A stretch of DNA of 64,000 bases from an uncultured Muribaculaceae bacterium (GCA_964369845.1 CAYJFJ010000003.1:2563-66562); one strand, 5' to 3'; numbered from the stretch's first letter, positions 26,808-62,764 are shown. The notes: generated from the letters alone by a model not told the origin. Program-made: numbers and translations.

Positions 26808-26891
26808 GGTGCAGGCAAAGGGACTTGAACCCCCATGGATTACTCCACTAGATCCTAAGTCTAGCGCGTCTACCAATTTCGCCATGCCTGC
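26808..26891 (-). tRNA. tRNA-Leu (anticodon UAG), CCA encoded
   Basis: Reverse complement GCAGGCATGGCGAAATTGGTAGACGCGCTAGACTTAGGATCTAGTGGAGTAATCCATGGGGGTTCAAGTCCCTTTGCCTGCACCA. It has a 7-bp acceptor stem, anticodon loop CTTAGGA, a long variable arm and a T-loop GGTTCAAGTCC. Confidence 0.9.
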
Positions 26892-26898
26892 ATTACAA

Positions 26899-26975
26899 TG
26901 GTGGACCTCGTAGGACTCGAACCTACGACCGCCCGGTTATGAGCCGGATGCTCTAACCAGCTGAGCTAGAGGTCC
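26899..26975 (-). tRNA. tRNA with CAU anticodon, CCA encoded; probably tRNA-Ile2 (lysidine type) rather than Met
   Basis: Reverse complement GGACCTCTAGCTCAGCTGGTTAGAGCATCCGGCTCATAACCGGGCGGTCGTAGGTTCGAGTCCTACGAGGTCCACCA. Clean cloverleaf. The body closely resembles the Bacillus tRNA-Ile(CAU) as I recall it. Identity (Ile2 vs Met) is not provable by eye. Confidence 0.88.
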
Positions 26976-42000: not shown

Positions 42001-43935
42001 TTATTCAGTTGCTACAAATGTAAATGTCGATGGTTTATTAGTAGTAGCATTTAATATATCTGCATCTGCCTGCGTTTTAGCATAAGCCTCGGTTATTTTA
42101 GTTGAATTTCTAAACATATTTTCACTATATGTTACATTAGTCATATCAAAATTACTTAAATCTATACTTGTTATATTCATACCCGAAAACATATTTCTCA
42201 TGTCTGTAACTTTTTGTGTATCAAAACTTGTGATATCTAAACTTATTAGAGATGTCATATACGAAAACATACCAGACATATCTGTGACACTTGATGTTTC
42301 AAAATTTGATAAATTTAAGTTTAGCAAAGAATTACATCCGCCAAACATTGAAGACATATCTGTTACTTTATTTGTGTTGAAAGAAGATATGTCTAGATTT
42401 TGTAAAGAGTATGTATATTGAAACATATACGACATATCAGTAACATTTTCAGTATTAAAATTATTTAAATTTAAGATACTAAGCGATTCAACATTACCAA
42501 ACATTTGAGACATATCAGTAACATTACTTGTATCAAAAGAACTTAAATTTAAACTTGTAAGTGAACTTAAACTAAAGAACATTCTATTCATATTTGTTAC
42601 TGAACTTGTATTAAACATGGATAAATCTAAATCTTTCAAAGATTCTAATAATGTGAACATATTTGACATATTTGTTACGTTGTTTGTATTAAAGGAATTT
42701 ATATTCAAGTCTGTTAAATAGTGCATGTTCCGAAACATCGATGACATATTTGTCACATTACTTGTATCAAAAGAACTTAAATCTAAATCGGTTATTGATT
42801 CTAGCGAATAAAACATACTATCCATAGATGTTACATTACTTGTATCAAACGTTGACAAATCTAAGGATGTTAAATACGAATCCCCTTCAAAAGTTGAGTT
42901 ATCAGTACCAATATCCATATTAAACATTTGCTGCATAGTAGTTACGTTACCTGTGTTATACCAACCATTAAATTCTAATTTTGTAATGGCGTTAAAGTTT
43001 CGAAAAGTTCCATACTGATTAGCATTTGCTATTATTCCTCTATCAGACTGAATATGCAATATTTGTTCTTCGTCTACATTTTCTATATAAGCTACTATTG
43101 ATTCGTTTTCTGCAACTGACAAGTCCCATTTATCTGTTGCTGCTTCATATCCTTCATCAATCTGTTTATCAAAAATAATTTGTGTTACTGTATCTCTAAA
43201 GCCTGACGTATGTATTAAGTTGTTGAAACTTTGACCTGAGATCATTTCGTTTGGAAAATCTAAATTAATATTTGCACTTAATTCTTTATTTAAATTATTT
43301 GTTTGACTACTTGGTAAATCTACAAATGTAACGGACATTGTCCACTTTTCTTCTATTTTACTTGTTGTAGTAATTTCTTTTAAATCATGAAGTCTAATCA
43401 TTTTATTTACTTCTGTTACATCAAAACCTGTATAACTTTTACCAGTAGCATCTGTTACTGTTACTCTTGTAAGTCCTTCAATAGTAGTTACTTCATTTCC
43501 TTCTGGGTCTACTACGTTTAGAAGAAGTTCTGCTGTTTTTTCTGCTGTAGTATACACAAATGAATTATTTGTAAAATCAGCATATACACTATAGTATTCG
43601 GTAGCGCTAGACTCAGCTTCGCCTTTTATTAAAGTTGCAAGCTGGTCTTCTTCATTAGTTATAGATCCACTTCCATCCACAAAACCAGTTGTACTTACTC
43701 CAAAAGGAACTGGATCATGGGGCGTAAAGAAGAATCTTCTTTCGCTTGGAGTATGGGAACTTATGTTTGATAATGTATTTACTCCGTCTCCTATAATATT
43801 TCCTAAATAAGCAAATGAGCCAGTAAATATTAAAAATAAAAATACTGCTACTATTAAAAATAATTGCCTTGTAATAAATTTGTTTAATCTAGTTTTTGGT
43901 TTGATTTTATTTAATGCTTTTTTCATCTTGTTCAT
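42001..43935 (-). CDS. BspA-type / DUF285 leucine-rich-repeat surface protein
   Basis: N-terminal anchor, then about 10 tandem 26-residue repeats of the form DLSxFDTSNVTxMxxMFxxxxSLT (roughly nt 42075..42885), the Mycoplasma/Listeria-type 26-residue surface repeat. Confidence 0.8.
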   Translation of the reverse strand: MNKMKKALNKIKPKTRLNKFITRQLFLIVAVFLFLIFTGSFAYLGNIIGDGVNTLSNISSHTPSERRFFFTPHDPVPFGVSTTGFVDGSGSITNEEDQLATLIKGEAESSATEYYSVYADFTNNSFVYTTAEKTAELLLNVVDPEGNEVTTIEGLTRVTVTDATGKSYTGFDVTEVNKMIRLHDLKEITTTSKIEEKWTMSVTFVDLPSSQTNNLNKELSANINLDFPNEMISGQSFNNLIHTSGFRDTVTQIIFDKQIDEGYEAATDKWDLSVAENESIVAYIENVDEEQILHIQSDRGIIANANQYGTFRNFNAITKLEFNGWYNTGNVTTMQQMFNMDIGTDNSTFEGDSYLTSLDLSTFDTSNVTSMDSMFYSLESITDLDLSSFDTSNVTNMSSMFRNMHYLTDLNINSFNTNNVTNMSNMFTLLESLKDLDLSMFNTSSVTNMNRMFFSLSSLTSLNLSSFDTSNVTDMSQMFGNVESLSILNLNNFNTENVTDMSYMFQYTYSLQNLDISSFNTNKVTDMSSMFGGCNSLLNLNLSNFETSSVTDMSGMFSYMTSLISLDITSFDTQKVTDMRNMFSGMNITSIDLSNFDMTNVTYSENMFRNSTKITEAYAKTQADADILNATTNKPSTFTFVATE

Positions 43936-53166: not shown

Positions 53167-53655
53167 CTAACTAATAACTTTATTAACTGTTTGCTCAATT
53201 GTTAATTTGCTTGAATCTATAATATATTCTTCACTGTATTTTGCATCTATGAACTCTTTTAAAAGTACAAGTGATCTTTTTCCCATTTGGCAATCCACTG
53301 GCCTTTTTTTATCTCTTCTTATTATAGTATCTTCATCTACTATAAGAACTCTAAAAATGATTTCATAATTATTAAATTTACTTTTTATTTCTTCAAATTC
53401 TTCTGGTTTAATTATATAATTAAATACTACATCGTACCCATTTTCCAAATATGAGTTAATTAATAAAAAAGAATTTTTCCAAAATAAATCTAGCGGCGCA
53501 TCATCAAGCCATGGACTAACTCTTCCTCCTACGAAAAAATTATAAACTGTATCTCCTTCAATCATAACTGATTTTTCTAAAGTTTCAGCTATTTTTTCAC
53601 TGATGGTACTTTTACCAACTCCCGCTGGGCCTGTAATTATATATAATTTATTCAT
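53167..53655 (-). CDS. P-loop kinase / AAA-type ATP-binding protein
   Basis: MNKLYIITGPAGVGKSTISEKIA Walker A, 162 aa. Small-molecule or nucleotide kinase-like size. Confidence 0.5.
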   Translation of the reverse strand: MNKLYIITGPAGVGKSTISEKIAETLEKSVMIEGDTVYNFFVGGRVSPWLDDAPLDLFWKNSFLLINSYLENGYDVVFNYIIKPEEFEEIKSKFNNYEIIFRVLIVDEDTIIRRDKKRPVDCQMGKRSLVLLKEFIDAKYSEEYIIDSSKLTIEQTVNKVIS

Positions 53656-53676
53656 TATTACCTCCTAATTTTATTT

Positions 53677-54159
53677 TTAATCTCTATGAATTTTTTGAAC
53701 TAATATATCACTTTTTATGACTTCTAAAATGAATTTAGGTTCTACACTATACTTATTTAAATCACTTAGATTAATCCATTCAAAATATTGTTCATCACCA
53801 TATTTAAGTTCTTTACTGTTTATGATATTTTTCGAATAATCAATTTCGGAAATTATTTGAAGTTTGCTTATAAAAAGTAATTCATGTCTATTTTTCTTAT
53901 CAAAATCTGAAAAAAAGAAATTTTCTATAATACCTTTAGTTTCTAAATGTATTGTATTTAGACCTAGTTCTTCTTTAATTTCTCTTACTATTGCTTCTTC
54001 TGAAGTTTCATTCAAAGAACATTTTCCTCCAGGAAGTGTTATAAAATCAAAATGCTTATTTCTTTGCATCAATATTTTATTTTCATTAATAATTATTGCT
54101 GCAGTCCTATATGTGAAATTTACATTATCTGTTTTTATTTTAATATCCATTTTTCTCAC
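53677..54159 (-). CDS. NUDIX hydrolase
   Basis: NUDIX box LPGGKCSLNETSEEAIVREIKEELGL. Confidence 0.75.
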   Translation of the reverse strand: MRKMDIKIKTDNVNFTYRTAAIIINENKILMQRNKHFDFITLPGGKCSLNETSEEAIVREIKEELGLNTIHLETKGIIENFFFSDFDKKNRHELLFISKLQIISEIDYSKNIINSKELKYGDEQYFEWINLSDLNKYSVEPKFILEVIKSDILVQKIHRD

Positions 54160-54682
54160 TCCTTATATAATATTCTAATATATACTTATCTCTAGCAACT
54201 ATAAATTTACTATGGTATAAATTTTCGTATTTGCTTTCTTTTAAGTTTTTTATACAGTTGCTTATTTTTTTCAAACCTTCTTCTGGTGATAGCCACAAAT
54301 AACTACCACCTTCATCTTTTTCCTTTTGTGTTAAACTTAATTGACCTGTATCTTTTATTACTTTCGACAAAAATACATATGACTTTTGAATGAAATTATC
54401 CTGACTTTTTTGTTCTTCTATTATTCCCAGTTTTTTTGTTATTTCAACTACTAATCCAGTTTCTTCTAACACTTCTCTAATAAATGCCTCTTCTGGCGTT
54501 TCTTTAAAATCAATTCCACCACCAGGCAATTTATATTCGTTTTTGTTCTTTTTGTGAAAAATTGCTATTTGATTCAAATTATTTAATATTATTCCTCTAG
54601 CTGCTATTCTAATTTTCGGTTCTTTAAATATTTTTGTTTCTAAATTAAAATAGCTATCATCTATTACTTTATTCAAACTCAT
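54140..54682 (-). CDS. NUDIX hydrolase
   Basis: NUDIX box LPGGGIDFKETPEEAFIREVLEETGL. Confidence 0.75.
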   Translation of the reverse strand: MSLNKVIDDSYFNLETKIFKEPKIRIAARGIILNNLNQIAIFHKKNKNEYKLPGGGIDFKETPEEAFIREVLEETGLVVEITKKLGIIEEQKSQDNFIQKSYVFLSKVIKDTGQLSLTQKEKDEGGSYLWLSPEEGLKKISNCIKNLKESKYENLYHSKFIVARDKYILEYYIRSEKNGY

Positions 54683-54751: not shown

Positions 54752-55867
54752 CTATAAAACAAATGCTATTAATGTGTTTGATCCTTTATTTACTATTTTT
54801 GTCATCGTATCTCCTAATTTATATCTTGTATTGTCTGGCATCATACTAAGTTTTGCTTTTATACCTTCACCTACAACTGTTTCAAGGGATCTTCCAAATA
54901 TTTCGCTTTTCCAAATATTACTTGGGTCTGATTCGTAATCTTTCATTAAATGATCAATTAATTCTTTTGATTGAAGTTCTGTTCCTATGATAGGTTCAAA
55001 TGTTGATTCAACATCTACTCTTACCAGATGTATAGAAGATGCTACTGCTTTTAATTTTACACCATATCTAGAACCTTGTTTGATAATTTCTGGTGGAGTT
55101 AATTTCATGTCCATCGTTCCAGGATACATTATGCCATAACCTGTTGATTTTGCCATTTTGAGAGCATCTTTAACTCTTTCAAATTCATCTTTTCCATCTT
55201 TATATGATGAAAACATTTTTATTAAACTTGCTTTATTCATTACTGCTTCACCTAATAAATCTTTAAGTGTTTCGTTATATAATTCTTCTGAGCTTTCTAA
55301 GTTTATTGTTACTACTCCAGTAGCAGCATCTAAAGATGATATATAAGTATTATTTATATAACTACTTTCTTTAAAATAATTTATAACATCGTCTATATCT
55401 TTTACTTTTTCTACATTAGTAATGCTACCTTTCATCATTTCTAAATAATGTTTTTTTATTTCACTTTCTTTTGATAATGCATGTATCCATTCTGGAATAC
55501 TCATTTTAATATCTAATACTGGAAATTCATAAAGCGCAGCTTTTAAAATTTCCATAATATCTTTTTCATTCATTTTATCTACTGCAACTGGCATTACAGG
55601 TACATTATATCTTTCAGACATATCTTGTGATAAATTAATAGCACTTTCACTTGTAGGATTATTTGTATTTAATATTACAATAAATGGTTTTCCTATATCT
55701 TCAAGCTCACCAATAACTTTTTCTTCTGCATCAATATATGCTTCTCTTTTAATATCGCCAAAAGATCCATCTGTTGTAACTACTATACCTATTGTAGCAT
55801 GGTCCTTAATAACTTTTTCTGTACCCATTTCAGCTGCCTCAACAAATGTTATAGGCTCATCATACCA
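54752..55867 (-). CDS. spoIVA: Stage IV sporulation protein A, 3' segment of a split gene (codons ~123-492)
   Basis: ORF 54752..55828 (MGTEKVIKDHATIGIVVTTDGSFGDI ... KIVNKGSNTLIAFVL) is colinear with the SpoIVA middle and C-terminal domains. The same frame stays open upstream to 55891 (GYHDFITYW YDEPITFVEAAE), and YDEPITFVEAAEMGTEKVIKDH aligns with B. subtilis YEEPIPFHEAAEIGTRKVIQEH. Confidence 0.92.
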   Translation of the reverse strand, partial: WYDEPITFVEAAEMGTEKVIKDHATIGIVVTTDGSFGDIKREAYIDAEEKVIGELEDIGKPFIVILNTNNPTSESAINLSQDMSERYNVPVMPVAVDKMNEKDIMEILKAALYEFPVLDIKMSIPEWIHALSKESEIKKHYLEMMKGSITNVEKVKDIDDVINYFKESSYINNTYISSLDAATGVVTINLESSEELYNETLKDLLGEAVMNKASLIKMFSSYKDGKDEFERVKDALKMAKSTGYGIMYPGTMDMKLTPPEIIKQGSRYGVKLKAVASSIHLVRVDVESTFEPIIGTELQSKELIDHLMKDYESDPSNIWKSEIFGRSLETVVGEGIKAKLSMMPDNTRYKLGDTMTKIVNKGSNTLIAFVL

Positions 55868-55890
55868 GTAGGTTATGAAATCGTGATACC
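55863..55890. repeat. Element end / recombination site (spoIVA-3'-proximal junction)
   Basis: Plus strand TACCA|GTAGGTTATGAAATCGTGATACC. TACCA is repeated at 61137..61141. GTAGGTT-N8-GTGATACC is the inverted copy of 61117..61139. The recombinase stop codon starts 2 nt beyond it (55892). Confidence 0.75.
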
Positions 55891-55891
55891 C

Positions 55892-57487
55892 CTAGGCAAG
55901 AAAATTATCACAAGTCTTGACTCTGAATATTATCTCCACTTGTTTATCTTTTGTTATATATATTTTTTCAATTATTTTGTTTATCATCTCTTTTGTTGGA
56001 TTTTCCATATTTAAAAAACTTTTTACTATCATTTTATAATTTTCTAACTCTGAATTATTTTCTAAAACTGTATACTTCTCTTTCTCATAATCTATTAAAG
56101 ATATTTTAAGGTCAGCTATTTCTTTTTCTGTAGCCATATTCATTCTTTGAAATCTTTCAGCAGTTATTAAACCTTCAACTTTATCATCATATAAATTGTC
56201 AATTTTTATCTCTAATTTTTCGATTTTCTTTTTTGCTTCACTTATTAACTTATTAAGAGGTCCTAAAGGATCTTTTTTATTTGTTTCAAGATAATCAATA
56301 AATTCTTTAGAATCTAAATTTGCACATAGTTCTCTAACCTTATTATATATAGTCTTTTCTAACTTTTCATAACTAACATGATGAGAAAAGCAAATATTGT
56401 GTGCACTATACTTTCTATAAGTATTACAGTTCATACTTGTTCTATCTCTTTTCTTACAGTAACTAATACCCATTCTAGCATCGCAATCTTTACAAAATAC
56501 TAAATTACCTAAAATGTATTCAACATTTCTTCTTGTTTCGCTATAAACATTAGATTTATTGCGAAGTCTAACTGCCCTTTTAAATGTTTCTTCATCTATT
56601 ATAGGTTCCATCGCATTTTCTATAACAATCCATTCTTCTTTAGGTTTAGTTATTCTTTTTTTTGATTTATAGTTTAAATTCATACCTTTATTTTGAACTA
56701 ATTTGCCCGTGTACATTTCATTTTTTAAAATATTACATAATGATGTATGCTTCCATATATGTGGATACTCTAATTTTTCTGCTCTTGAATTCGTTTTTTG
56801 ATGCATTATGGGAGTTGGTATTTTTTCTTTTGTTAGTAAATTAGCTATAACTTTTGTTCCATAACCTGAAACATAGAGTTCAAATATTCTTTTAACAACT
56901 GGAGCAGCGACTGGATCTATTATTAATTTGTGCTTATCTTCTGGATCTTTCATATAACCATATGGACAAGTTCCTCCAATAAATTTTCCTGCTTGCCTCA
57001 TCGCCATAATAGCTGATTTCACTTTTTTTGATATATCTTTTGCATACATATCATTCATACCTAATCTAAACGGCATCATATCAGCACCATCACATTTATC
57101 ATTGAATGTATCTATATTATCGTTAACAGCTATATATCTAACTTTCTTATCTGGAAAGTATTTTTCAATATAATAACCTGTCTCAATGTAATCTCTACCT
57201 AACCTTGATAAATCTTTAGTTACTATCATATTTATTTTACCAAGTTCAATATCTCTAATTAACCTTTTAAATCCAGGTCTATTAAAATTAAGTCCAGAAA
57301 ATCCATCATCTATATAAGTATCAACTATTTCAAAATTTTCTCCTAAACTATTAATGAAGTTTGTTAAAAGTAATCTTTGGTTAGATACACTTTCTGATTC
57401 TATATCATCTCCATCTTCTCTTGATAGTCTTATGGATAATCCGACTTTGTAAGTCTTATTATCAATTATATATTTGCTTGTAAACAC
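55892..57487 (-). CDS. Large serine recombinase (SpoIVCA/SprA-like)
   Basis: 531 aa, GTG start behind an AAGGAGG RBS. Resolvase catalytic domain (VGLSIRLSREDG, YIDDGFSG, VTKDLSRLGRD), recombinase domain, Cys-rich zinc-ribbon region (CKDCDARM...CNTYRKY) and a C-terminal coiled coil. Confidence 0.93.
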   Translation of the reverse strand: MFTSKYIIDNKTYKVGLSIRLSREDGDDIESESVSNQRLLLTNFINSLGENFEIVDTYIDDGFSGLNFNRPGFKRLIRDIELGKINMIVTKDLSRLGRDYIETGYYIEKYFPDKKVRYIAVNDNIDTFNDKCDGADMMPFRLGMNDMYAKDISKKVKSAIMAMRQAGKFIGGTCPYGYMKDPEDKHKLIIDPVAAPVVKRIFELYVSGYGTKVIANLLTKEKIPTPIMHQKTNSRAEKLEYPHIWKHTSLCNILKNEMYTGKLVQNKGMNLNYKSKKRITKPKEEWIVIENAMEPIIDEETFKRAVRLRNKSNVYSETRRNVEYILGNLVFCKDCDARMGISYCKKRDRTSMNCNTYRKYSAHNICFSHHVSYEKLEKTIYNKVRELCANLDSKEFIDYLETNKKDPLGPLNKLISEAKKKIEKLEIKIDNLYDDKVEGLITAERFQRMNMATEKEIADLKISLIDYEKEKYTVLENNSELENYKMIVKSFLNMENPTKEMINKIIEKIYITKDKQVEIIFRVKTCDNFLA

Positions 57488-57515
57488 TTATCCTCCTTTT
57501 AAAAATTTTAGTTTA

Positions 57516-57623
57516 TTAACTTTTATATATAAATCTTTTTTCATAGTAAGAAAAAATACAAGGTTTTAAAACATCTTTCAATTTACTACCGTTTTCATTA
57601 AAAAAGCAAATTGTTTCATACAT
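57516..57623 (-). CDS. 35-codon ORF directly upstream of the recombinase (speculative accessory/directionality factor)
   Basis: Own translation MYETICFFNENGSKLKDVLKPCIFSYYEKRFIYKS. A strong AAAGGAGA RBS lies 6 nt upstream, and the ORF ends 28 nt before the recombinase GTG. There is no homology evidence and it may not be expressed. Confidence 0.3.
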   Translation of the reverse strand: MYETICFFNENGSKLKDVLKPCIFSYYEKRFIYKS

Positions 57624-57921
57624 ATTTTTATCTCCTTTTAATTATTTAATTTTATTAACACAAAAAAAATATATTCCAACTCTGAATATATTTTTAATAT
57701 ACATATTTTTAATTATCTAACATTTAAAACAAATTCTGTTAATGAGTTTTTTATGTAACATTTTTCAGATGGTATATTTAAATATCTAATTAGACCACAT
57801 AATGTGATAGTTATCTATTAGAAATTACCTTTTTTTTTACTAAATTTTGAATATCATATTTATCTCTGGTGTTACTTAAAAATATTAAATTCTAAATGTT
57901 CTTCATTTAATTATTTTCTTG

Positions 57922-58983
57922 TTATTCACTTTTAAATAATTTGATAGGAGATATTTTAAGTATTTTTTTATATCCGATATAACTAATTAGTAATAATATT
58001 GTTACTAAAGTTATATATGAAATAATCAACGAACTAATTAAATTTATCAAAGAAAAATAAATTTGTATGTCCTCAAATATAATAAATATCATACAGTATA
58101 TACACATCACTAAAACATTAATTATTAAATACAACTTTGTAATTTTTTTTAGTAAAGCTTCTATAACTAATTTTATAATAGCTATATTTCGAAATCCGCT
58201 AGTTTTTAATATTGCTATATCGTATTTATACTCATTAATCATAAAACTAATAATAAATCCTATAATAAATATCAAAAATGTAGACACTACTAAAATACCT
58301 AATTTCACATAATTTATGATATTAGTAAACAGTTCTATATCTGTAATTCCAGAGCTATCATTCATATACATACTAAGTCCTTCTTTTTCCAATAATGAGT
58401 TGAATTTTTCTATATTATCATAATCATCTATTATTACTTTAAATTCATTAGCATTTTTTAACGCGTACATTTGCATAATATTTTCAGAAACTATTATTTT
58501 GTTAAAACCTACTTTTTCATCGTTATATTCTGATATTATTTCTAATTTTAGAATTTGATTTCCAACTTCAAGATTTATATAATCTCCAACATCTTTATTT
58601 AGTGATTTTGGAACTATTGCTTCGATATTGGATATTTTATTAAACTCACTATAGTAATTAACTTCGTATACTTTGCTGTTTTCTTTAAATAATAAATCTT
58701 CATATGAATCATATATGCCATTTATATATTTTGAAGTTTCGAAATGATTTTTGTAGCTTTCTATTATTAATTCATTTTCACTGTATTCTTCAAAATGCAC
58801 ATTTAAAACTCTATTTTGTATTTTATTTTTTATTGAAATATTATAGTAATTATTTAAATAAGTTAAACTAGATAATAATATTACGAAAGATAATATAAAA
58901 ATTGCAAATACACCCGATTTTTCATTGTATTTCTTTGACTGAAAATAAAACGTCCTATTCATCTTTTTTAACCAACCCTTCAA
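57922..58983 (-). CDS. FtsX/MacB-type ABC transporter permease (4 TM with extracytoplasmic domain)
   Basis: 353 aa. TM1 (VFAIFILSFVILLSSLTYL), an extracytoplasmic domain of about 170 aa, then three C-terminal TMs. Overlaps the upstream permease gene by 29 nt. Confidence 0.7.
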   Translation of the reverse strand: MKGWLKKMNRTFYFQSKKYNEKSGVFAIFILSFVILLSSLTYLNNYYNISIKNKIQNRVLNVHFEEYSENELIIESYKNHFETSKYINGIYDSYEDLLFKENSKVYEVNYYSEFNKISNIEAIVPKSLNKDVGDYINLEVGNQILKLEIISEYNDEKVGFNKIIVSENIMQMYALKNANEFKVIIDDYDNIEKFNSLLEKEGLSMYMNDSSGITDIELFTNIINYVKLGILVVSTFLIFIIGFIISFMINEYKYDIAILKTSGFRNIAIIKLVIEALLKKITKLYLIINVLVMCIYCMIFIIFEDIQIYFSLINLISSLIISYITLVTILLLISYIGYKKILKISPIKLFKSE

Positions 58984-60184
58984 TTATAGTTGAATTTGTT
59001 AATTTTCCATTAACTTTTTTAGTTGTTAAATTAAGCGAAACAAAAATCAATAATATTGAAAATATAATAGACTCTATCGAAATTACTATAGGAATTTTTA
59101 AAAATAAATATGGTCTATAGAAAATAAGTATGTTATAAATCACATAAATAGTGATGATAATTATTAATAGAATCATAGTAATAATTAAAGCTAAAAAATT
59201 ATTTTCAAATATATTCAGTTTTACCAAATCTCTTTTTCTAAAACCGACAGTTCTCAAAATATTGAATTTACTTAATGAATTATTTATGTCTTTCATATAT
59301 ATATTGTTAATTATAATTAGTGAGAATATTAAAGATACTGCTAAAATAATATATATTATAATATTTACTATACTAATAATCTTTGAATTTACATAAGTTA
59401 CTCTTGATGCTGTTAACTCTAAATCAATAATTTGCTCTATCACCGTTTCTACATTATCTGTATTATCAACTTGTACTATTATTGAAGATAACTGATTTTC
59501 AATATCTATATACTTAAAACTTTCTTCATTTATTGTTTGTACTAATAAATTATTTACATAACATTTATTTTCATCTGAGTAATAGGAATTATTATCAAAA
59601 GTTCCGACAATCGTTAATTTTTTAGATATTGTATTCACTTCAAATAAGTTTTCATCTACATACTGGTTATAAGAAATATCTATGTTAGTTCCTATAAATT
59701 TTGTCATATCTATAAAATCATTATTAGTTAAGTTGGTTATTTCTTCTAAATTATCCTCAGGATAAAATCTACTTGGACATATGACTTCATTATCATTTTC
59801 TATATTTTTTCCTTGAGACACTTTAGGTCTTGTTTTTTCATTGGATCCTAATAACCAAAAATCTCCTTTAAAATGTTCGTGGTTTATGTTTGCTGTAATA
59901 TAAAACTCATTATCCAAAATAACATTGTCTACATGTTTTAGTTCTTCTAAATTTTTTATAGTTTCTTCTTCCGACATAATTTTTTCGTTTACATCTACAT
60001 AAATGCTTCTATACCAAATATCTTCTTTTATTCCTTTATTTATGTATGTATCCATGGTACTTTTAAACGAAAATGAAGATATTAAAAGTAAAGATATACA
60101 AATTAATATTATTATTATTTTCTTCTTTTCTTTACCTTTGTAACTATTTTTGCAACCATAATCTTTAAATATACTATTATTCAT
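58955..60184 (-). CDS. FtsX/MacB-type ABC transporter permease (4 TM with large extracytoplasmic domain)
   Basis: 409 aa. TM1 (IIIILICISLLLISSFSF), an extracytoplasmic domain of about 230 aa, then three C-terminal TMs with the FtsX-like TVGFRKRDL loop. Overlaps the ATPase gene by 8 nt. Confidence 0.72.
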   Translation of the reverse strand: MNNSIFKDYGCKNSYKGKEKKKIIIILICISLLLISSFSFKSTMDTYINKGIKEDIWYRSIYVDVNEKIMSEEETIKNLEELKHVDNVILDNEFYITANINHEHFKGDFWLLGSNEKTRPKVSQGKNIENDNEVICPSRFYPEDNLEEITNLTNNDFIDMTKFIGTNIDISYNQYVDENLFEVNTISKKLTIVGTFDNNSYYSDENKCYVNNLLVQTINEESFKYIDIENQLSSIIVQVDNTDNVETVIEQIIDLELTASRVTYVNSKIISIVNIIIYIILAVSLIFSLIIINNIYMKDINNSLSKFNILRTVGFRKRDLVKLNIFENNFLALIITMILLIIIITIYVIYNILIFYRPYLFLKIPIVISIESIIFSILLIFVSLNLTTKKVNGKLTNSTIIEGLVKKDE

Positions 60185-60860
60185 ACATTTCTTCTTTCAG
60201 TTTACCTTTTTCCATCTTTAATATTTTATCTGCATATTTTGCATTAGATGTATTGTGACTAACAACTATTACGCATTTGCCATTTTTGGCTAAATCATTT
60301 AATATTTTCATTATTATTTTTTCATTATTTTCATCTAGGTTACCAGTTGGCTCATCTGCTAGAATGATGGACGGATCATTAACTAAAGCTCTTGCAATGG
60401 CAATTCTTTGTTGCTCTCCACCTGATAATTCATTAGGAAAGTGATTTTTTCTATTTTCTAATCCCACTAGTTTTAATAATTTCAAAACTTTTTCTTCTCT
60501 AGATTTAGAATCCATTTCTTTATTGAGATACAATGGAATTAAAATATTTTGAAAAGCAGTTAAAGAATTATTGAGATAATAAGATTGAAATACAAACCCT
60601 ATATGTTTTTTTCTTAAATCTGCTAGTTTGTTTTCATTTAAATTAATTACTTTTTCCTCTATAATTGAAATATCTCCACTTGTAAATTCATCTAAAGTAG
60701 CCATACAATGCAGTAAAGTTGACTTACCTGATCCACTATTTCCCAGTATTAAATATAAATTATTATTACTGAAACTATAATTTATTCCATCAACTGCTCT
60801 TATTATACTTTTATCTTTTTCGTAAATCTTTTCACAATTTTTCAATTCTATAAAATTCAT
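60177..60860 (-). CDS. ABC transporter ATP-binding protein (MacB/LolD-like)
   Basis: Walker [11 protein letters not shown]-loop, signature LSGGEQQR, Walker [13 protein letters not shown]-loop VVSHN. GGAGG RBS. Confidence 0.92.
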
Positions 60861-60916
60861 AAATCCTCCGACATTATATTAAATTCATTTAATATAATAC
60901 TCTTATTTTAACAAAC

Positions 60917-60947
60917 AAAAAGCCACATAAAATTTATGCAACTTTTT
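60917..60947 (-). terminator. Hairpin with flanking U-run in the ABC operon leader (possible attenuator/terminator)
   Basis: Plus strand AAAAAGCCACATAAAATTTATGCAACTTTTT. It has 6 outer and 6 inner base pairs around a 3x3 internal mismatch. On the minus RNA it is followed by UGUUUGUU. It overlaps the stop of the 24-codon ORF. Confidence 0.3.
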
Positions 60948-61020
60948 AGGTTTGAAAGATAGTTGAATTTAATTGCAAAAACATTTTTCTTGTACAGTTA
61001 TTGTGATATATTAAATTCAT
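60946..61020 (-). CDS. 24-codon leader ORF upstream of the ABC operon (speculative)
   Basis: Own translation MNLIYHNNCTRKMFLQLNSTIFQT, with an AGGAGA RBS 8 nt upstream, located between the candidate promoter and the hairpin. No further support. Confidence 0.2.
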   Translation of the reverse strand: MNLIYHNNCTRKMFLQLNSTIFQT

Positions 61021-61040
61021 AACTATCATCTCCTGAATTT

Positions 61041-61069
61041 AATCTATCATTTTTTATTATCTTTGTCAA
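61041..61069 (-). promoter_or_regulatory. Candidate sigma-A-type promoter for the element's ABC operon
   Basis: Minus strand TTGACA (61064..61069), 17 nt, TAGATT (61041..61046). A perfect -35, optimal spacing and a moderate -10. Such matches are less specific in AT-rich DNA. Confidence 0.35.
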
Positions 61070-61116
61070 TATACATAGCTTGCCATATAAGGATATATAT
61101 TATAGTTCCCTCTTGA

Positions 61117-61141
61117 GGTATCACTAATTAACAACCTACCA
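61117..61141. repeat. Element end / recombination site (spoIVA-5'-proximal junction)
   Basis: Plus strand GGTATCACTAATTAACAACCTAC|CA. This is an inverted copy of 55868..55890, matching at 7+8 outer positions with a different 8-nt spacer. TACCA lies at 61137..61141. Confidence 0.75.
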
Positions 61142-61513
61142 TGGACTCTTAACCATCCTAGGATTTCCTTCTTCATCTGTAAAACCATTTGCCTCTGGTA
61201 CTACGTAACCTACGCAATCAACTAATTTTATTTTAGTTGAGAATTCACCTACTTTAATTTCTGCACCACTTGAAGGCACAAATTTAGGTTCTGTTGTCAT
61301 AATAGTTTTTCCTTCAGCACTTTGAGGGATTTCATCTAGACATTTTTTCTTTTCATATTCATCAGTAATATTAGGTACCACTAAATTTTCAATAAATCTT
61401 TTTATAAATGTAGATTTACCAGTTCTAACAGCACCTACTACTCCTAAATATATTTCTCCATTTCCCTTTTTAGATATTGAAGAAATTATTTGTTCTTTAT
61501 TCATAAACACCAA
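61136..61513 (-). CDS. spoIVA: Stage IV sporulation protein A, 5' segment of a split gene (codons 1-~122, Walker A region)
   Basis: GEIYLGVVGAVRTGKSTFIKRF...QSAEGKTIMTTEPKFVP...KLVDCVGYVVPEANGF...GNPRMVKSPW* is colinear with the B. subtilis SpoIVA N-terminus (GDIYLGVVGAVRTGKSTFIKKF...NGPRMINTPW). The TAG stop (61136..61138) is supplied by the first bases of the element. The likely true start is ATG at 61504 (MNKEQ). Confidence 0.92.
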   Translation of the reverse strand: MVFMNKEQIISSISKKGNGEIYLGVVGAVRTGKSTFIKRFIENLVVPNITDEYEKKKCLDEIPQSAEGKTIMTTEPKFVPSSGAEIKVGEFSTKIKLVDCVGYVVPEANGFTDEEGNPRMVKSPW

Positions 61514-61622
61514 TCTTTCCTTTACTACTTAAATTTATTCTTTTTTACTTTTTTATATACATAATAATTTAAATTTAAAATAAAAAGCACACTTTTCTCG
61601 TGCACTTTCTTCTTTAAGATAT

Positions 61623-62521: not shown

Positions 62522-62764
62522 TTAAAACATTTTTTCTACATTATTAGGTACTTTATCTTCTACTATCTTATTTACTATTTTATCTATTTGTTCATCTGAT
62601 ACTTTTTTACCTGTAACTTTGCTAAGTGTTCCTATTATTTCTTTAATAGTACCTTCATCTTTCATATTACCATTTTGCAATTTTTCTGCTAGTGATAAAA
62701 TTGTATCTTTTTTTACACTTGTTTTATTTTCAATTTTTTTAAAAAGTTCATCGTTTAATTTCAT
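62522..62764 (-). CDS. spoVIF: SpoVIF (YjcC)-like small sporulation protein
   Basis: 80 aa. LFKKIENKTSVKKDTILSLAEKLQNGNMKDEGTIKEII resembles the B. subtilis SpoVIF N-terminus (FFKNIEKKTGV...LAGSLQNANFKDENT), as recalled. Confidence 0.55.
   Translation of the reverse strand: MKLNDELFKKIENKTSVKKDTILSLAEKLQNGNMKDEGTIKEIIGTLSKVTGKKVSDEQIDKIVNKIVEDKVPNNVEKMF

What the first reader, a model, noticed from the sequence alone, without database searches (positions are those of the whole stretch)
54752..61513. spoIVA, the spore-coat basement-layer ATPase gene, is split by a 5.27-kb serine-recombinase element (skin-like intervening element in a new target gene)
ORF 61136..61513 encodes the SpoIVA N-terminus with its Walker A motif (GAVRTGKST) and stops at ...NPRMVKSPW*. 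The rest of SpoIVA is encoded 5.3 kb downstream on the same strand (54752..55867, in-frame YDEPITFVEAAEMGTEKVIKDH...). Joined, the two parts give a 492-codon protein colinear end to end with B. subtilis SpoIVA, which I recall as 492 aa.

The insert encodes a 531-aa large serine recombinase of the SpoIVCA/SprA type. This matches the developmentally excised elements known for sigK (skin), spsM (SPbeta) and spoVFB/spoVR/gerE in some Bacillus strains. I do not recall spoIVA among reported targets.

spoIVA is an early sigma-E gene at the top of the coat and cortex morphogenesis hierarchy. Excision would therefore have to happen very soon after asymmetric division, a tighter timing constraint than for the late gene sigK. 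The alternative is that the strain is simply spoIVA-null.
Basis: partly seen in the sequence, partly recalled or inferred. Interest (0 to 1): 0.92.

Follow-up and report, generated by a model that had tools for sequence, protein, structure and literature searches.

The report
Mobile element splitting sporulation gene spoIVA
The spore-coat gene spoIVA in this window is cut in two by a 5.3-kb mobile element that carries its own recombinase; it belongs to a family I could not find described, which lands in the same codon of this gene in many uncultured gut bacteria and can leave without a scar, probably so the gene is rebuilt when the cell makes a spore.

Summary
spoIVA (minus strand) is split at one Trp codon (TGG) by a 5,274-bp insert. 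Joining the parts gives a 492-aa protein that matches the SpoIVA equivalog model end to end.

The insert encodes a large serine recombinase (LSR), a conserved 35-aa ORF just upstream of it, and an ABC-transporter cargo. It is one member of a clade. In 24 of the 25 other loci where an LSR at least 52% identical has readable downstream DNA (18 distinct elements), the LSR sits directly before the spoIVA 3' part, at the same codon. The element arms are conserved (GGTATCAC-N15-TGG-N14/15-GTGATACC). All 29 related loci carry the small ORF, and cargo varies. LSRs at 44% identity or less lie elsewhere.

LSRs 99% identical occur in hosts whose spoIVA is only 68% identical, so the elements move horizontally. 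For three sister elements the in-silico joined SpoIVA exists exactly as an uninterrupted protein. One empty-site contig matches its occupied counterpart except for the insert, with only TGG overlapping.

Integration and scarless loss are therefore well supported. [quoted passage not shown] I found no report of spoIVA as a target. Verdict: new member of a known kind.

The parts
61139..61504 (-). spoIVA 5' part: codons 1-122, with Walker A GAVRTGKST. It ends with the Trp122 codon TGG at 61141..61139. The insert supplies a TAG stop at 61138..61136.
   Evidence: Pfam SpoIVA_ATPase and TIGR02836 on the joined protein
61117..61141 (-). attL: crossover codon TGG, then 14 nt, then GTGATACC (the element's left arm, 61124..61117).
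   Evidence: the same TGG-N14/15-GTGATACC layout in all 8 elements with both junctions read
61041..61069 (-). Sigma-A-like promoter (TTGACA-17-TAGATT with an upstream TG) just inside the element, ahead of the ABC-transporter genes.
   Evidence: consensus scan only
60177..60860 (-). Cargo: ABC transporter ATP-binding protein (227 aa).
   Evidence: ABC_tran; LolD/FtsE/MacB-like hits, all below equivalog cutoffs
58955..60184 (-). Cargo: FtsX-like permease (409 aa).
   Evidence: PF02687 FtsX, 26.5 bits
57922..58983 (-). Cargo: second membrane protein (353 aa) with hydrophobic C-terminal segments resembling the neighbouring permease. No family hit.
57516..57623 (-). Conserved 35-aa ORF (MYETICFFNENGSKLKDVLKPCIFSYYEKRFIYKS) with a strong ribosome-binding site, 28 nt upstream of the recombinase gene. 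Candidate recombination directionality factor.
   Evidence: an HMM of it hits all 26 clade loci then in hand and none of about 147 loci with more distant LSRs; it is also present in L188-L190; no Pfam family
57648..57675 (-). Sigma-E-like promoter match upstream of the small ORF: GAATATA-N13-AATAAAAT, 12 of 15 consensus positions. Approximate coordinates.
   Evidence: weak in the window (8.7% of random 80-nt windows score as high), stronger in sister elements (13/15)
55892..57487 (-). Large serine recombinase, 531 aa, GTG start. Catalytic motif RLSREDGDD, with Ser22 invariant across the clade.
55865..55890 (-). attR: GGTATCAC (55890..55883), then 15 nt, then TGG (55867..55865).
   Evidence: the same layout in 17 of the 18 elements aligned (L005 reads GGTATCGT)
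54752..55867 (-). spoIVA 3' part: codons 122-492 plus the stop. One intact reading frame.
62522..62764 (-). Context: intact spoVIF (80 aa) upstream of spoIVA. Another sporulation gene is therefore retained in this genome.
   Evidence: PF14069, 71.7 bits; the same gene order in the empty-site contig L174

Best explanation
The window carries a 5.27-kb integrative element of a family I could not find described. The family is defined by three things: a TnpX/TndX-like large serine recombinase at the element's 3' edge, a conserved 35-70-aa partner ORF just upstream of it, and variable cargo (here an ABC transporter).

Shown by comparison:
- The recombinase recombines an element site (GGTATCAC-N15-TGG-N14/15-GTGATACC) with a conserved stretch of spoIVA. 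The crossover lies inside the Trp122 codon TGG.
- The elements move horizontally between distant hosts and land in the same codon (one secondary-site exception).
- Their absence leaves a perfectly intact gene.

Inferred:
- The small ORF is the recombination directionality factor.
- During sporulation the small ORF-recombinase operon is switched on in the mother cell, from a sigma-E-like promoter and/or read-through from spoIVA.
- The element is then excised as a circle, and spoIVA is rebuilt and expressed so that coat and cortex assembly proceed.
- The forespore chromosome keeps the element, so it is inherited.
For: 1. The split is precise and the joined protein is a full-length SpoIVA.

2. 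In 24 of the 25 other loci with an LSR at least 52% identical and readable downstream DNA (18 distinct elements), the LSR is followed by the spoIVA 3' part starting at the same Trp codon. None of 65 genome loci or about 80 viral loci with LSRs at 44% identity or less has spoIVA nearby.

3. The att arms are conserved, and attL and attR share only TGG, as expected for a serine-recombinase crossover.

4. L018 and L025 have LSRs 99% identical in nucleotides (dS 0.06), while their spoIVA is 68% identical (dS 1.8). That indicates recent horizontal transfer into the same codon.

5. The joined SpoIVA of sister elements L013, L019 and L009 exists exactly as an uninterrupted protein, on 209, 1 and at least 1000 contigs. 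Empty-site contig L174 matches occupied L019 at 527/527 and 2681/2683 nt, with only TGG overlapping.

6. The small ORF is present in all 29 related loci and absent from loci with more distant LSRs. Proven directionality factors of the comparable elements are similarly small proteins without known families: GirX 42 aa, CD1234 72 aa.

7. Sigma-E-like matches upstream of the small ORF score 13/15 in two subclades. At most 1.7% of random windows do as well, and this equals the host spoIVA promoters (11-13/15). In the window and in L010 the -10 box resembles that of the host's own spoIVA.

8. All spoIVA fragments read in clade carriers are intact. Neighbouring sporulation genes are also intact: spoVIF in the window, gpr and spoIIP in L005.

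9. The sporulation-gene rearrangements described in the papers read (sigK, spsM, spoVFB, spoVR, gerE) are all in mother-cell-expressed genes and are reconstituted by excision during sporulation.
Against: - No experiment or read-level data show excision during sporulation, for this element or any sister.
- Because the elements are recently mobile, intact gene halves do not prove selection after insertion.
- The window's own promoter match is weak: 12/15, the -10 box lacks the conserved C, and 8.7% of random windows score as high.
- The closest named recombinases, TnpX and TndX, are (from my own knowledge) reported to excise and insert without a directionality factor. Excision could therefore be stochastic rather than developmental.
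- The likely host lineages (uncultured Mycoplasmatales-related Bacilli) include many species that have lost sporulation.
- The small ORF and the recombinase appear to be co-transcribed. How integration would then escape inhibition by a directionality factor is unexplained.
- The window's own joined protein and its recombinase have no exact match in the collections.
Confidence: 0.6

Rival explanations
1. Plain insertional inactivation. The element is an ordinary site-specific integrative, mobilisable or conjugative element whose preferred site happens to lie in spoIVA. Carriers cannot make SpoIVA and are asporogenous. This is tolerated because these gut lineages are under relaxed selection for sporulation. 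Excision happens only rarely, for transfer.
For: - The host-related orders RFN20, RF39 and ML615J-28 are predicted to have lost sporulation many times.
- Carriers appear to be a minority within species: the exact intact protein P0257 is on at least 1000 contigs, while each C-fragment allele is on 1-10 contigs.
- The elements are recently mobile, so intact halves need not reflect selection.
- Sister elements carry transfer genes: a Mob_Pre relaxase and a T4SS coupling protein.
- One sister LSR also sits at a non-spoIVA site (L189).
Against: - Targeting of one codon of spoIVA has been kept while the recombinases diverged to about 50% identity. That is hard to reconcile with a strategy that sterilises spore-transmitted hosts.
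- No decayed spoIVA half was seen in 18 distinct sister elements, including a triple-split gene.
- Neighbouring sporulation genes are intact.
- There are sigma-E-like matches upstream of the small ORF.
- In the papers read, the studied recombinase elements within mother-cell sporulation genes are excised during sporulation.
Confidence: 0.25
2. Stochastic reversible switch. The recombinase, like TnpX/TndX-type enzymes, excises at a low constitutive rate. This gives a mixed population in which only cells, or mother cells, that have lost the element can complete spores. It would be a bet-hedging or phase-variation-like control of sporulation rather than a developmental programme.
For: - The closest named relatives are TnpX and TndX.
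- No terminator is predicted between the sigma-A-like cargo promoter and the recombinase in the window, so low constitutive expression is possible.
- Near-identical occupied and empty genomes coexist in public data.
- The yabG element of C. botulinum shows excised forms at all time points and heterogeneity.
Against: - The strictly co-distributed small ORF suggests controlled directionality.
- Excision in vegetative cells would lose a non-replicating circle and erode carriage.
- Sigma-E-like promoter matches are present.
Confidence: 0.12
3. Assembly artefact or chimera: the insert was wrongly placed inside spoIVA.
For: None found. The window's own source reads were not available.
Against: The same architecture, with matching att arms and the same codon, appears in dozens of independent assemblies from different projects and hosts. 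An occupied/empty pair differs only by the insert.
Confidence: 0.01

Closest known systems
gin element in gerE of Bacillus cereus ATCC 10987 (GirC recombinase plus GirX, 42 aa)
   Same: A non-phage element that interrupts a mother-cell sporulation gene. A large serine recombinase and a very small partner protein with no known family control excision. The target site lies in conserved coding sequence, which allowed integration into another species' gerE in vitro.
   Different: The target here is spoIVA, not gerE. The elements are much smaller (3.5-11 kb versus 28.6 kb) and carry one recombinase rather than three. The small ORF lies directly upstream of the recombinase. No experiments exist.
skin elements in sigK (B. 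subtilis SpoIVCA; C. difficile CD1231 plus the directionality factor CD1234)
   Same: The recombinase gene sits at the element edge next to the 3' gene fragment. Excision rebuilds an in-frame gene. In C. difficile a small sigma-E/SpoIIID-controlled factor of 72 aa restricts excision to the mother cell.
   Different: The target is a structural morphogenetic ATPase, not a sigma factor. There are no phage genes. The recombinase is closer to TnpX/TndX than to SprA and has no SpoIVCA-specific hit. The family is horizontally mobile now, and some members carry relaxase or T4SS genes.
vrin in spoVR, vfbin in spoVFB, SPbeta in spsM, yin in yabG
   Same: The same general phenomenon: serine-recombinase elements within mother-cell sporulation genes.
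   Different: Those are prophages or prophage remnants in other genes. None of the papers read lists spoIVA.
Tn4451 and Tn5397 (TnpX and TndX large serine recombinase transposons of clostridia and enterococci)
   Same: These are the closest named recombinases: TnpX catalytic domain E = 4e-29, TndX about 34% identity. Like them, this is a small non-phage element with cargo, and its sisters carry Mob or conjugation functions.
   Different: Only about 34% identity. The spoIVA clade is highly site-specific (one TGG codon) and has long conserved inverted arms and a conserved small partner ORF. From my own knowledge, TnpX/TndX use GA-centred, more relaxed targets and need no directionality factor.

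Membership tests
SpoIVA (stage IV sporulation protein A) | Full-length match to the equivalog model TIGR02836 above its cutoff; ATPase, middle and C-terminal domains in order; Walker A motif | tested here: met
   Joined protein scores 612.8 bits against a cutoff of 459.9, aligned 1-492 of 492. PF09547, PF20438 and PF20439 occur in order. GAVRTGKST is present.
Large serine recombinases | N-terminal resolvase catalytic domain with a Ser nucleophile, then a Recombinase domain, then a zinc-ribbon domain with a C-terminal coiled-coil region | tested here: met
   PF00239, PF07508 and PF13408 are all present. R20-L21-S22 is invariant in 13 clade members. The protein matches TnpX and SprA structures by sequence. 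The coiled coil was judged from the sequence only.
Large serine recombinases | Very short crossover overlap (2 bp) between attL and attR, with imperfect inverted repeats around it in attP | tested here: met
   Only TGG is shared between attL and attR across the elements. The arms read GGTATCAC-N15-TGG-N14/15-GTGATACC. TG versus GG as the crossover dinucleotide could not be resolved.
Sporulation-gene intervening elements (skin / SPbeta / vfbin / vrin / gin / yin class) | Element interrupts the coding sequence of a mother-cell-expressed sporulation gene | tested here: met
   The interruption of spoIVA is shown. Mother-cell, sigma-E-dependent expression of spoIVA is established knowledge from B. 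subtilis and C. difficile; it was not tested in this organism.
Sporulation-gene intervening elements | Precise excision restores an intact in-frame gene | tested here: inconclusive
   For sister elements the exact joined protein exists uninterrupted, and an occupied/empty pair differs only by the insert at TGG. This shows either scarless excision or insertion into that allele. For the window's own element no empty allele was found.
Sporulation-gene intervening elements | A cognate recombination directionality factor is encoded in the element | tested here: inconclusive
   The conserved 35-70-aa ORF occurs in all 29 clade loci and in none of the loci with more distant LSRs. It has no family hit. 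Its function was not tested.
Sporulation-gene intervening elements | Excision is triggered during sporulation and confined to the mother cell | not testable with these tools
   The only evidence is sigma-E-like promoter matches: 13/15 in two subclades and 12/15 in the window.
SpoIVCA / SprA orthologues | Specific sequence relationship to SpoIVCA or SprA beyond the shared superfamily | tested here: not met
   SprA (YokA) matches only at E = 4.5e-17. The best NCBIfam hits (CcrB 103 bits, XisF 86 bits) are far below their cutoffs. TnpX is closer. SpoIVCA itself was not compared directly.
Tn4451/Tn5397-type serine-recombinase transposons | TnpX/TndX-like recombinase together with mobilisation or conjugation genes and relaxed GA-centred targets | tested here: not met
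   Identity to TndX is only about 34%. The window element has no Mob or T4SS gene. The target is one specific TGG codon. Some sister elements do carry Mob_Pre or a T4SS coupling protein.
Prophage or phage-derived element | Phage structural or replication genes, or close recombinase relatives in phage genomes | tested here: not met
   No recombinase with a full-length match of 50% identity or more occurs in IMG/VR (best 42%; one partial 285-residue match at 49%), and none above about 35% in INPHARED phages. The cargo is an ABC transporter.

The most novel reading that the evidence does not exclude
spoIVA is a hub for several independent lineages of self-timing mobile elements in uncultured gut Bacilli. 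At least two distinct recombinase families use two different codons (Trp122 and His401), and sometimes both are present in one gene, so SpoIVA synthesis needs one or two sequential DNA excisions. Under this reading, the small ORF-recombinase operon copies the host's own sigma-E promoter of spoIVA, so each element removes itself exactly when its target is needed. The same elements spread by mobilisation or conjugation and carry defence, adhesin or transporter cargo. Sporulation competence in these lineages would then be conditional on the recombination machinery of mobile elements.
Probability: 0.35. Interest if true: 0.8.

Novelty: new member of a known kind. Interest (0 to 1): 0.62.

Why it matters
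SpoIVA is the one coat morphogenetic protein conserved in all endospore formers and sits at the base of coat and cortex assembly. A widespread element family that must be cut out of this gene would extend programmed DNA rearrangement during sporulation in four ways:

- from regulators and late genes to the basement-layer structural ATPase;
- from cultured Bacillus and Clostridium species to uncultured, genome-reduced gut Bacilli;
- it shows that small non-phage cargo islands, mobilisable elements and conjugative elements all use the mother-cell 'safe harbour';
- it supplies a new, highly site-specific large serine recombinase clade with defined att sites and a candidate 35-aa directionality factor, which is of interest as a genome-engineering tool.

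There is also a practical point. Gene callers report spoIVA as fragments in these genomes, so genome-based predictions of sporulation ability in metagenome-assembled genomes may wrongly score carriers as spoIVA-defective.

Tried and rejected
- Exact look-up of the window recombinase found nothing. The window's joined SpoIVA is also not in the collection. No same-strain empty site or source genome was identified.
- A generic attP pattern scanned against IMG/VR gave one hit, an unrelated high-GC phage with a tyrosine integrase. I treat it as chance. No free or circular form was found.
- Phage and plasmid records hold no close recombinase; the best is about 34% identical.
- The small ORF has no Pfam family.
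- I intended to use dN/dS and the intactness of the spoIVA halves as evidence of selection after insertion. I rejected this because the elements are recently transferred, so intactness could simply reflect recent arrival.
- Co-divergence of recombinase and host SpoIVA is weak (Spearman 0.28), so long vertical inheritance like that of skin is not supported.
- Promoter reading: the sigma-70 scan is at background level (69 found versus 63.5 expected). The sigma-E scoring is suggestive in sister subclades but weak in the window. It was not used as proof.
- About 30 window proteins were annotated to judge sporulation competence. Apart from spoVIF they are housekeeping genes, which is uninformative.
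- The organism was not identified beyond a low-GC (about 25%) relative of metagenome-assembled genomes labelled Bacilli, Tenericutes or Mycoplasma. There is no rRNA in the window.
- Structure prediction of a recombinase-small ORF complex was not attempted. The tool takes single chains of window sequences only.

Full report
**1. Observation**

On the minus strand, ORF 61513..61136 encodes the SpoIVA N-terminus. Its likely start is the ATG at 61504, and it contains the Walker A motif GAVRTGKST. It ends ...NPRMVKSPW followed by TAG. The reading frame resumes at 55867 (WYDEPITFVEAAEMGTEKV...) and runs to the stop at 54752.

Both junctions contain TGG: CCATGGTAGG at attL and CTACTGGTATG at attR. 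The two TGG codons are 5,274 bp apart.

Joined at this codon, the protein is 492 aa long. It matches NCBIfam TIGR02836 (spore_IV_A, equivalog) over 1-492 of 492 at 612.8 bits, against a cutoff of 459.9. It also carries the three Pfam SpoIVA domains in order. It aligns at 100% coverage with more than 100 uninterrupted 492-aa SpoIVA proteins of 71-79% identity from metagenome-assembled genomes (MAGs) labelled Bacilli.

There is no other spoIVA copy in the window.

**2. Anatomy of the insert**

All genes in the insert are co-oriented with spoIVA. From the 5' side they are:
- a sigma-A-like promoter match (61069..61041);
- an ABC ATPase (60860..60177), an FtsX-like permease (60184..58955) and a second membrane protein (58983..57922);
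- a 35-aa ORF with a strong ribosome-binding site (57623..57516);
- 28 nt further on, a 531-aa large serine recombinase (LSR; 57487..55892) with Resolvase, Recombinase and Zn_ribbon_recom domains.

Its stop codon lies one base from the right arm of the element.

The reconstructed attP is symmetric: GGTATCAC-N15-TGG-N14-GTGATACC. No terminator-like structure is predicted on the spoIVA strand inside the element. There are no phage genes.

**3. A family, not a one-off**

The window LSR has no exact match in the collection. It does have more than 100 homologue clusters at roughly 46-76% identity. Two of these clusters hold about 550 member sequences each.

I examined the genomic context of seven homologues and of the species-representative genomes found with an LSR alignment. 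In all, 29 other loci carry an LSR at least 52% identical, and 25 of them have readable downstream DNA.
- In 24 of those 25 (18 distinct elements), the LSR is immediately followed by the spoIVA 3' part, starting at the same Trp codon.
- Where upstream DNA is available, the spoIVA 5' part lies 3.5-11 kb upstream.
- None of the 65 genome loci or about 80 IMG/VR loci with LSRs at 44% identity or less has spoIVA nearby.

So the clade boundary coincides with the choice of target.

attR reads GGTATCAC-N15-TGG in all but one of the aligned elements (L005 has GGTATCGT). Every attL reads TGG-N14/15-GTGATACC. Apart from TGG, nothing is shared between attL and attR in some elements. This fits the 2-bp crossover typical of serine recombinases. 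Whether the crossover dinucleotide is TG or GG cannot be resolved.

The one exception is L189. There the same LSR that sits in spoIVA in L190 lies in an element with conjugative-element features (T4SS coupling protein, RadC, a sigma factor) next to unrelated DNA and a cotZ gene. I read this as a secondary site.

**4. Cargo varies; the recombination module does not**

Element sizes are 3.5, 4.2, 5.3, 6.8, 9.9, 10.2, 10.6 and 11.1 kb. Cargo includes:
- a SoFic-like Fic protein and a PDC-S01 ATPase, both candidate defence genes;
- a 2,111-aa methyltransferase-helicase;
- giant adhesin-like proteins;
- a signal peptidase;
- a Mob_Pre relaxase with HTH regulators;
- a T4SS coupling protein.

In contrast, the small ORF is found directly upstream of the LSR in all 29 related loci. 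Its conserved motif is MYE..EF[FY]..[ND]G..LK[DE][VL]LKSCI..YY. An HMM of it hit all 26 clade loci then in hand and none of about 147 loci with more distant LSRs, and it is also present in L188-L190. It has no Pfam family.

Known directionality factors of comparable elements are likewise tiny orphan proteins: GirX at 42 aa and CD1234 at 72 aa. I therefore regard the small ORF as the candidate directionality factor. This is an inference.

**5. Mobility and scarless absence**

The LSR genes of L018 and L025 are 99% identical in nucleotides (dS 0.06). The spoIVA 3' parts beside them are only 68% identical (dS 1.8). Several other pairs show the same contrast, and LSR identity tracks host SpoIVA identity only weakly (Spearman 0.28). 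The elements have therefore moved recently between distant hosts, landing in the same codon.

I joined the two spoIVA halves in silico for eight carriers and looked up the exact proteins:
- L013-joined is on 209 contigs.
- L019-joined is on 1 contig.
- L009-joined is on at least 1000 contigs and is named 'stage IV sporulation protein A [Bacilli bacterium]'.

The single empty-site contig for L019 (L174) is identical to the occupied locus over 527/527 nt on the left and 2681/2683 nt on the right. The two alignments overlap by exactly TGG.

Within the L009 host species, carrier alleles sit on at least three SpoIVA haplotypes that also occur intact. This proves that the predicted junction is the natural gene sequence. 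It also shows that essentially identical genomes exist with and without the element, which means either insertion into that allele or scarless excision from it.

**6. What the recombinase is related to**

- The best solved-structure match is the catalytic domain of TnpX from Tn4451 (E = 4e-29).
- SPbeta SprA matches at E = 4.5e-17.
- The best named relative in plasmid records is TndX of Tn5397, at about 34% identity.
- Phage records give 35% identity or less.
- NCBIfam models for CcrB and XisF are hit far below their cutoffs.

So this is a large serine recombinase of a transposon-like branch, not a SpoIVCA or SprA orthologue.

**7. How it most likely works**

Shown:
- site-specific integration into the TGG of Trp122 of spoIVA;
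- a conserved attP architecture;
- horizontal spread;
- intact alleles identical to the predicted excision product.

Inferred: during sporulation the small ORF-LSR operon is expressed in the mother cell, the element is excised, and spoIVA is rebuilt and transcribed by sigma-E RNA polymerase. The forespore keeps the element.

Support for the inferred part comes from four sources.

(a) Precedent. The sporulation-gene rearrangements described in the papers I read (sigK, spsM, spoVFB, spoVR, gerE) all involve mother-cell-expressed genes that are reconstituted by excision during sporulation. Sigma-E already controls spoIVCA and CD1234.

(b) Promoter matches. I scored the consensus kmATATT-N13-15-CATACAhT upstream of the small ORF.
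- It reaches 13/15 in the L013/L014/L017/L018/L021 subclade and in L019. At most 1.7% of random 80-nt windows from the same loci do as well. Because these sequences are related, they are not independent observations.
- This equals the best matches upstream of the hosts' own spoIVA (11-13/15).
- In the window the match is weaker: GAATATA-N13-AATAAAAT, 12/15, with 8.7% of random windows scoring as high. It does resemble the best match upstream of the window's spoIVA (GTATATA-N14-AATAAATT).
- In L010 both -10 boxes read AATAAACT.

(c) All spoIVA fragments in carriers of this clade are intact, including a gene split into three.

(d) Nearby sporulation genes are intact: spoVIF in the window, gpr and spoIIP in L005.

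**8. Why I am not more confident**

- No data show timing or compartment.
- Recent mobility makes the intact halves uninformative about selection.
- TnpX/TndX-type enzymes are, to my knowledge, bidirectional without a directionality factor.
- The probable host lineages (MAGs labelled Bacilli, Tenericutes or Mycoplasma; a DUF285 'Mycoplasma' protein in the window) belong to, or lie near, orders predicted to have lost sporulation repeatedly.

Plain inactivation (0.25) and a stochastic switch (0.12) therefore remain live rivals. An artefact is excluded for practical purposes (0.01).

**9. Literature and novelty**

Full-text searches combined spoIVA with intervening, recombinase, attB and prophage, and also used the product name. 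None returned a report of an interrupted spoIVA.

The primary papers and surveys I read list sigK, spsM, spoVFB, spoVR, gerE and yabG as interrupted sporulation genes, and spoVK as the integration locus of an SPbeta-like phage. The library lacks many subscription-journal papers, so absence of a report is not proof.

I classify this as a new member of a known kind. It has a new target gene, a new LSR clade with defined att sites, a new candidate directionality-factor family, and a new host range (uncultured gut Bacilli).

**10. Verdict**

The structure and the novelty hold. The recombinase assignment needs correcting. Developmental excision is plausible but unproven.
- Interest is 0.62.

Noticed in passing
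L012:7382-15615 (MAG CALVXD010000070.1); also L176, L177, L185: spoIVA has a second recombinase insertion site at His401 (SIH|MI, shared core CATAT). In L012 the gene is in three pieces. The Trp122 element is followed by a roughly 7-kb element that ends in a different 546-aa large serine recombinase, whose ORF runs across the junction, and that also carries a 200-aa small resolvase. Human-gut contigs L176 and L177 (recombinase 69% identical) have only this second site occupied, by an element of about 8.5 kb. L185 shows the same right junction.
   Followed up: partly
L183:9624-14146: A third arrangement. A recombinase 42% identical to the site-2 enzyme lies about 1.1 kb from a spoIVA 5' part that ends three codons further on (…SIHMIR|), on the opposite strand. 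This may be another independent lineage targeting the same region.
   Followed up: no
L189:9809-13872 versus L190: The same recombinase protein (P0002) is found in spoIVA in L190. In L189 it lies next to unrelated DNA (TGGTACCCCTTATG…, two unknown ORFs, then cotZ), inside an element with conjugative-element features (T4SS coupling protein, RadC, sigma70_r2 protein, GmrSD). This is probably a secondary (pseudo-attB) site or a rearrangement.
   Followed up: partly
L091:8001-9479: The closest uninterrupted SpoIVA (78% identity) has a strongly divergent right half-site (PW|NEESISFEMAAS instead of PW|YDEPITFVEAAE). Such alleles might be refractory to integration.
   Followed up: no
window 61500-61580 and 57640-57680; L010: The best sigma-E-like match upstream of the small ORF resembles the best match upstream of the host's own spoIVA. 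In the window the two -10 boxes are AATAAAAT and AATAAATT. In L010 both are AATAAACT, and both lack the canonical C. This could reflect a lineage-specific -10 consensus or simply AT-rich chance.
   Followed up: partly
L011:8585-9637; L021:7621-8910; L005:2259-8594: Several sister elements carry candidate anti-phage defence cargo: SoFic (E = 8e-40), PDC-S01 (E = 9e-142), and a 2,111-aa methyltransferase/SNF2-helicase fusion. The spoIVA site therefore acts as a small defence and accessory island hotspot.
   Followed up: partly
window 53167-54682: Directly downstream of spoIVA lie two tandem NUDIX hydrolase genes and a small P-loop kinase-like gene. In relatives the gene after spoIVA is hbs (Bac_DNA_binding; L005, L009, L010, L091, L174). 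Local synteny therefore differs in the window.
   Followed up: no
window 42001-43935 and 26810-26975: A 644-aa protein has six DUF285 ('Mycoplasma protein') repeats, consistent with a Mycoplasmatales-related Bacilli host. Two adjacent tRNA genes are the only Rfam hits in the window.
   Followed up: no
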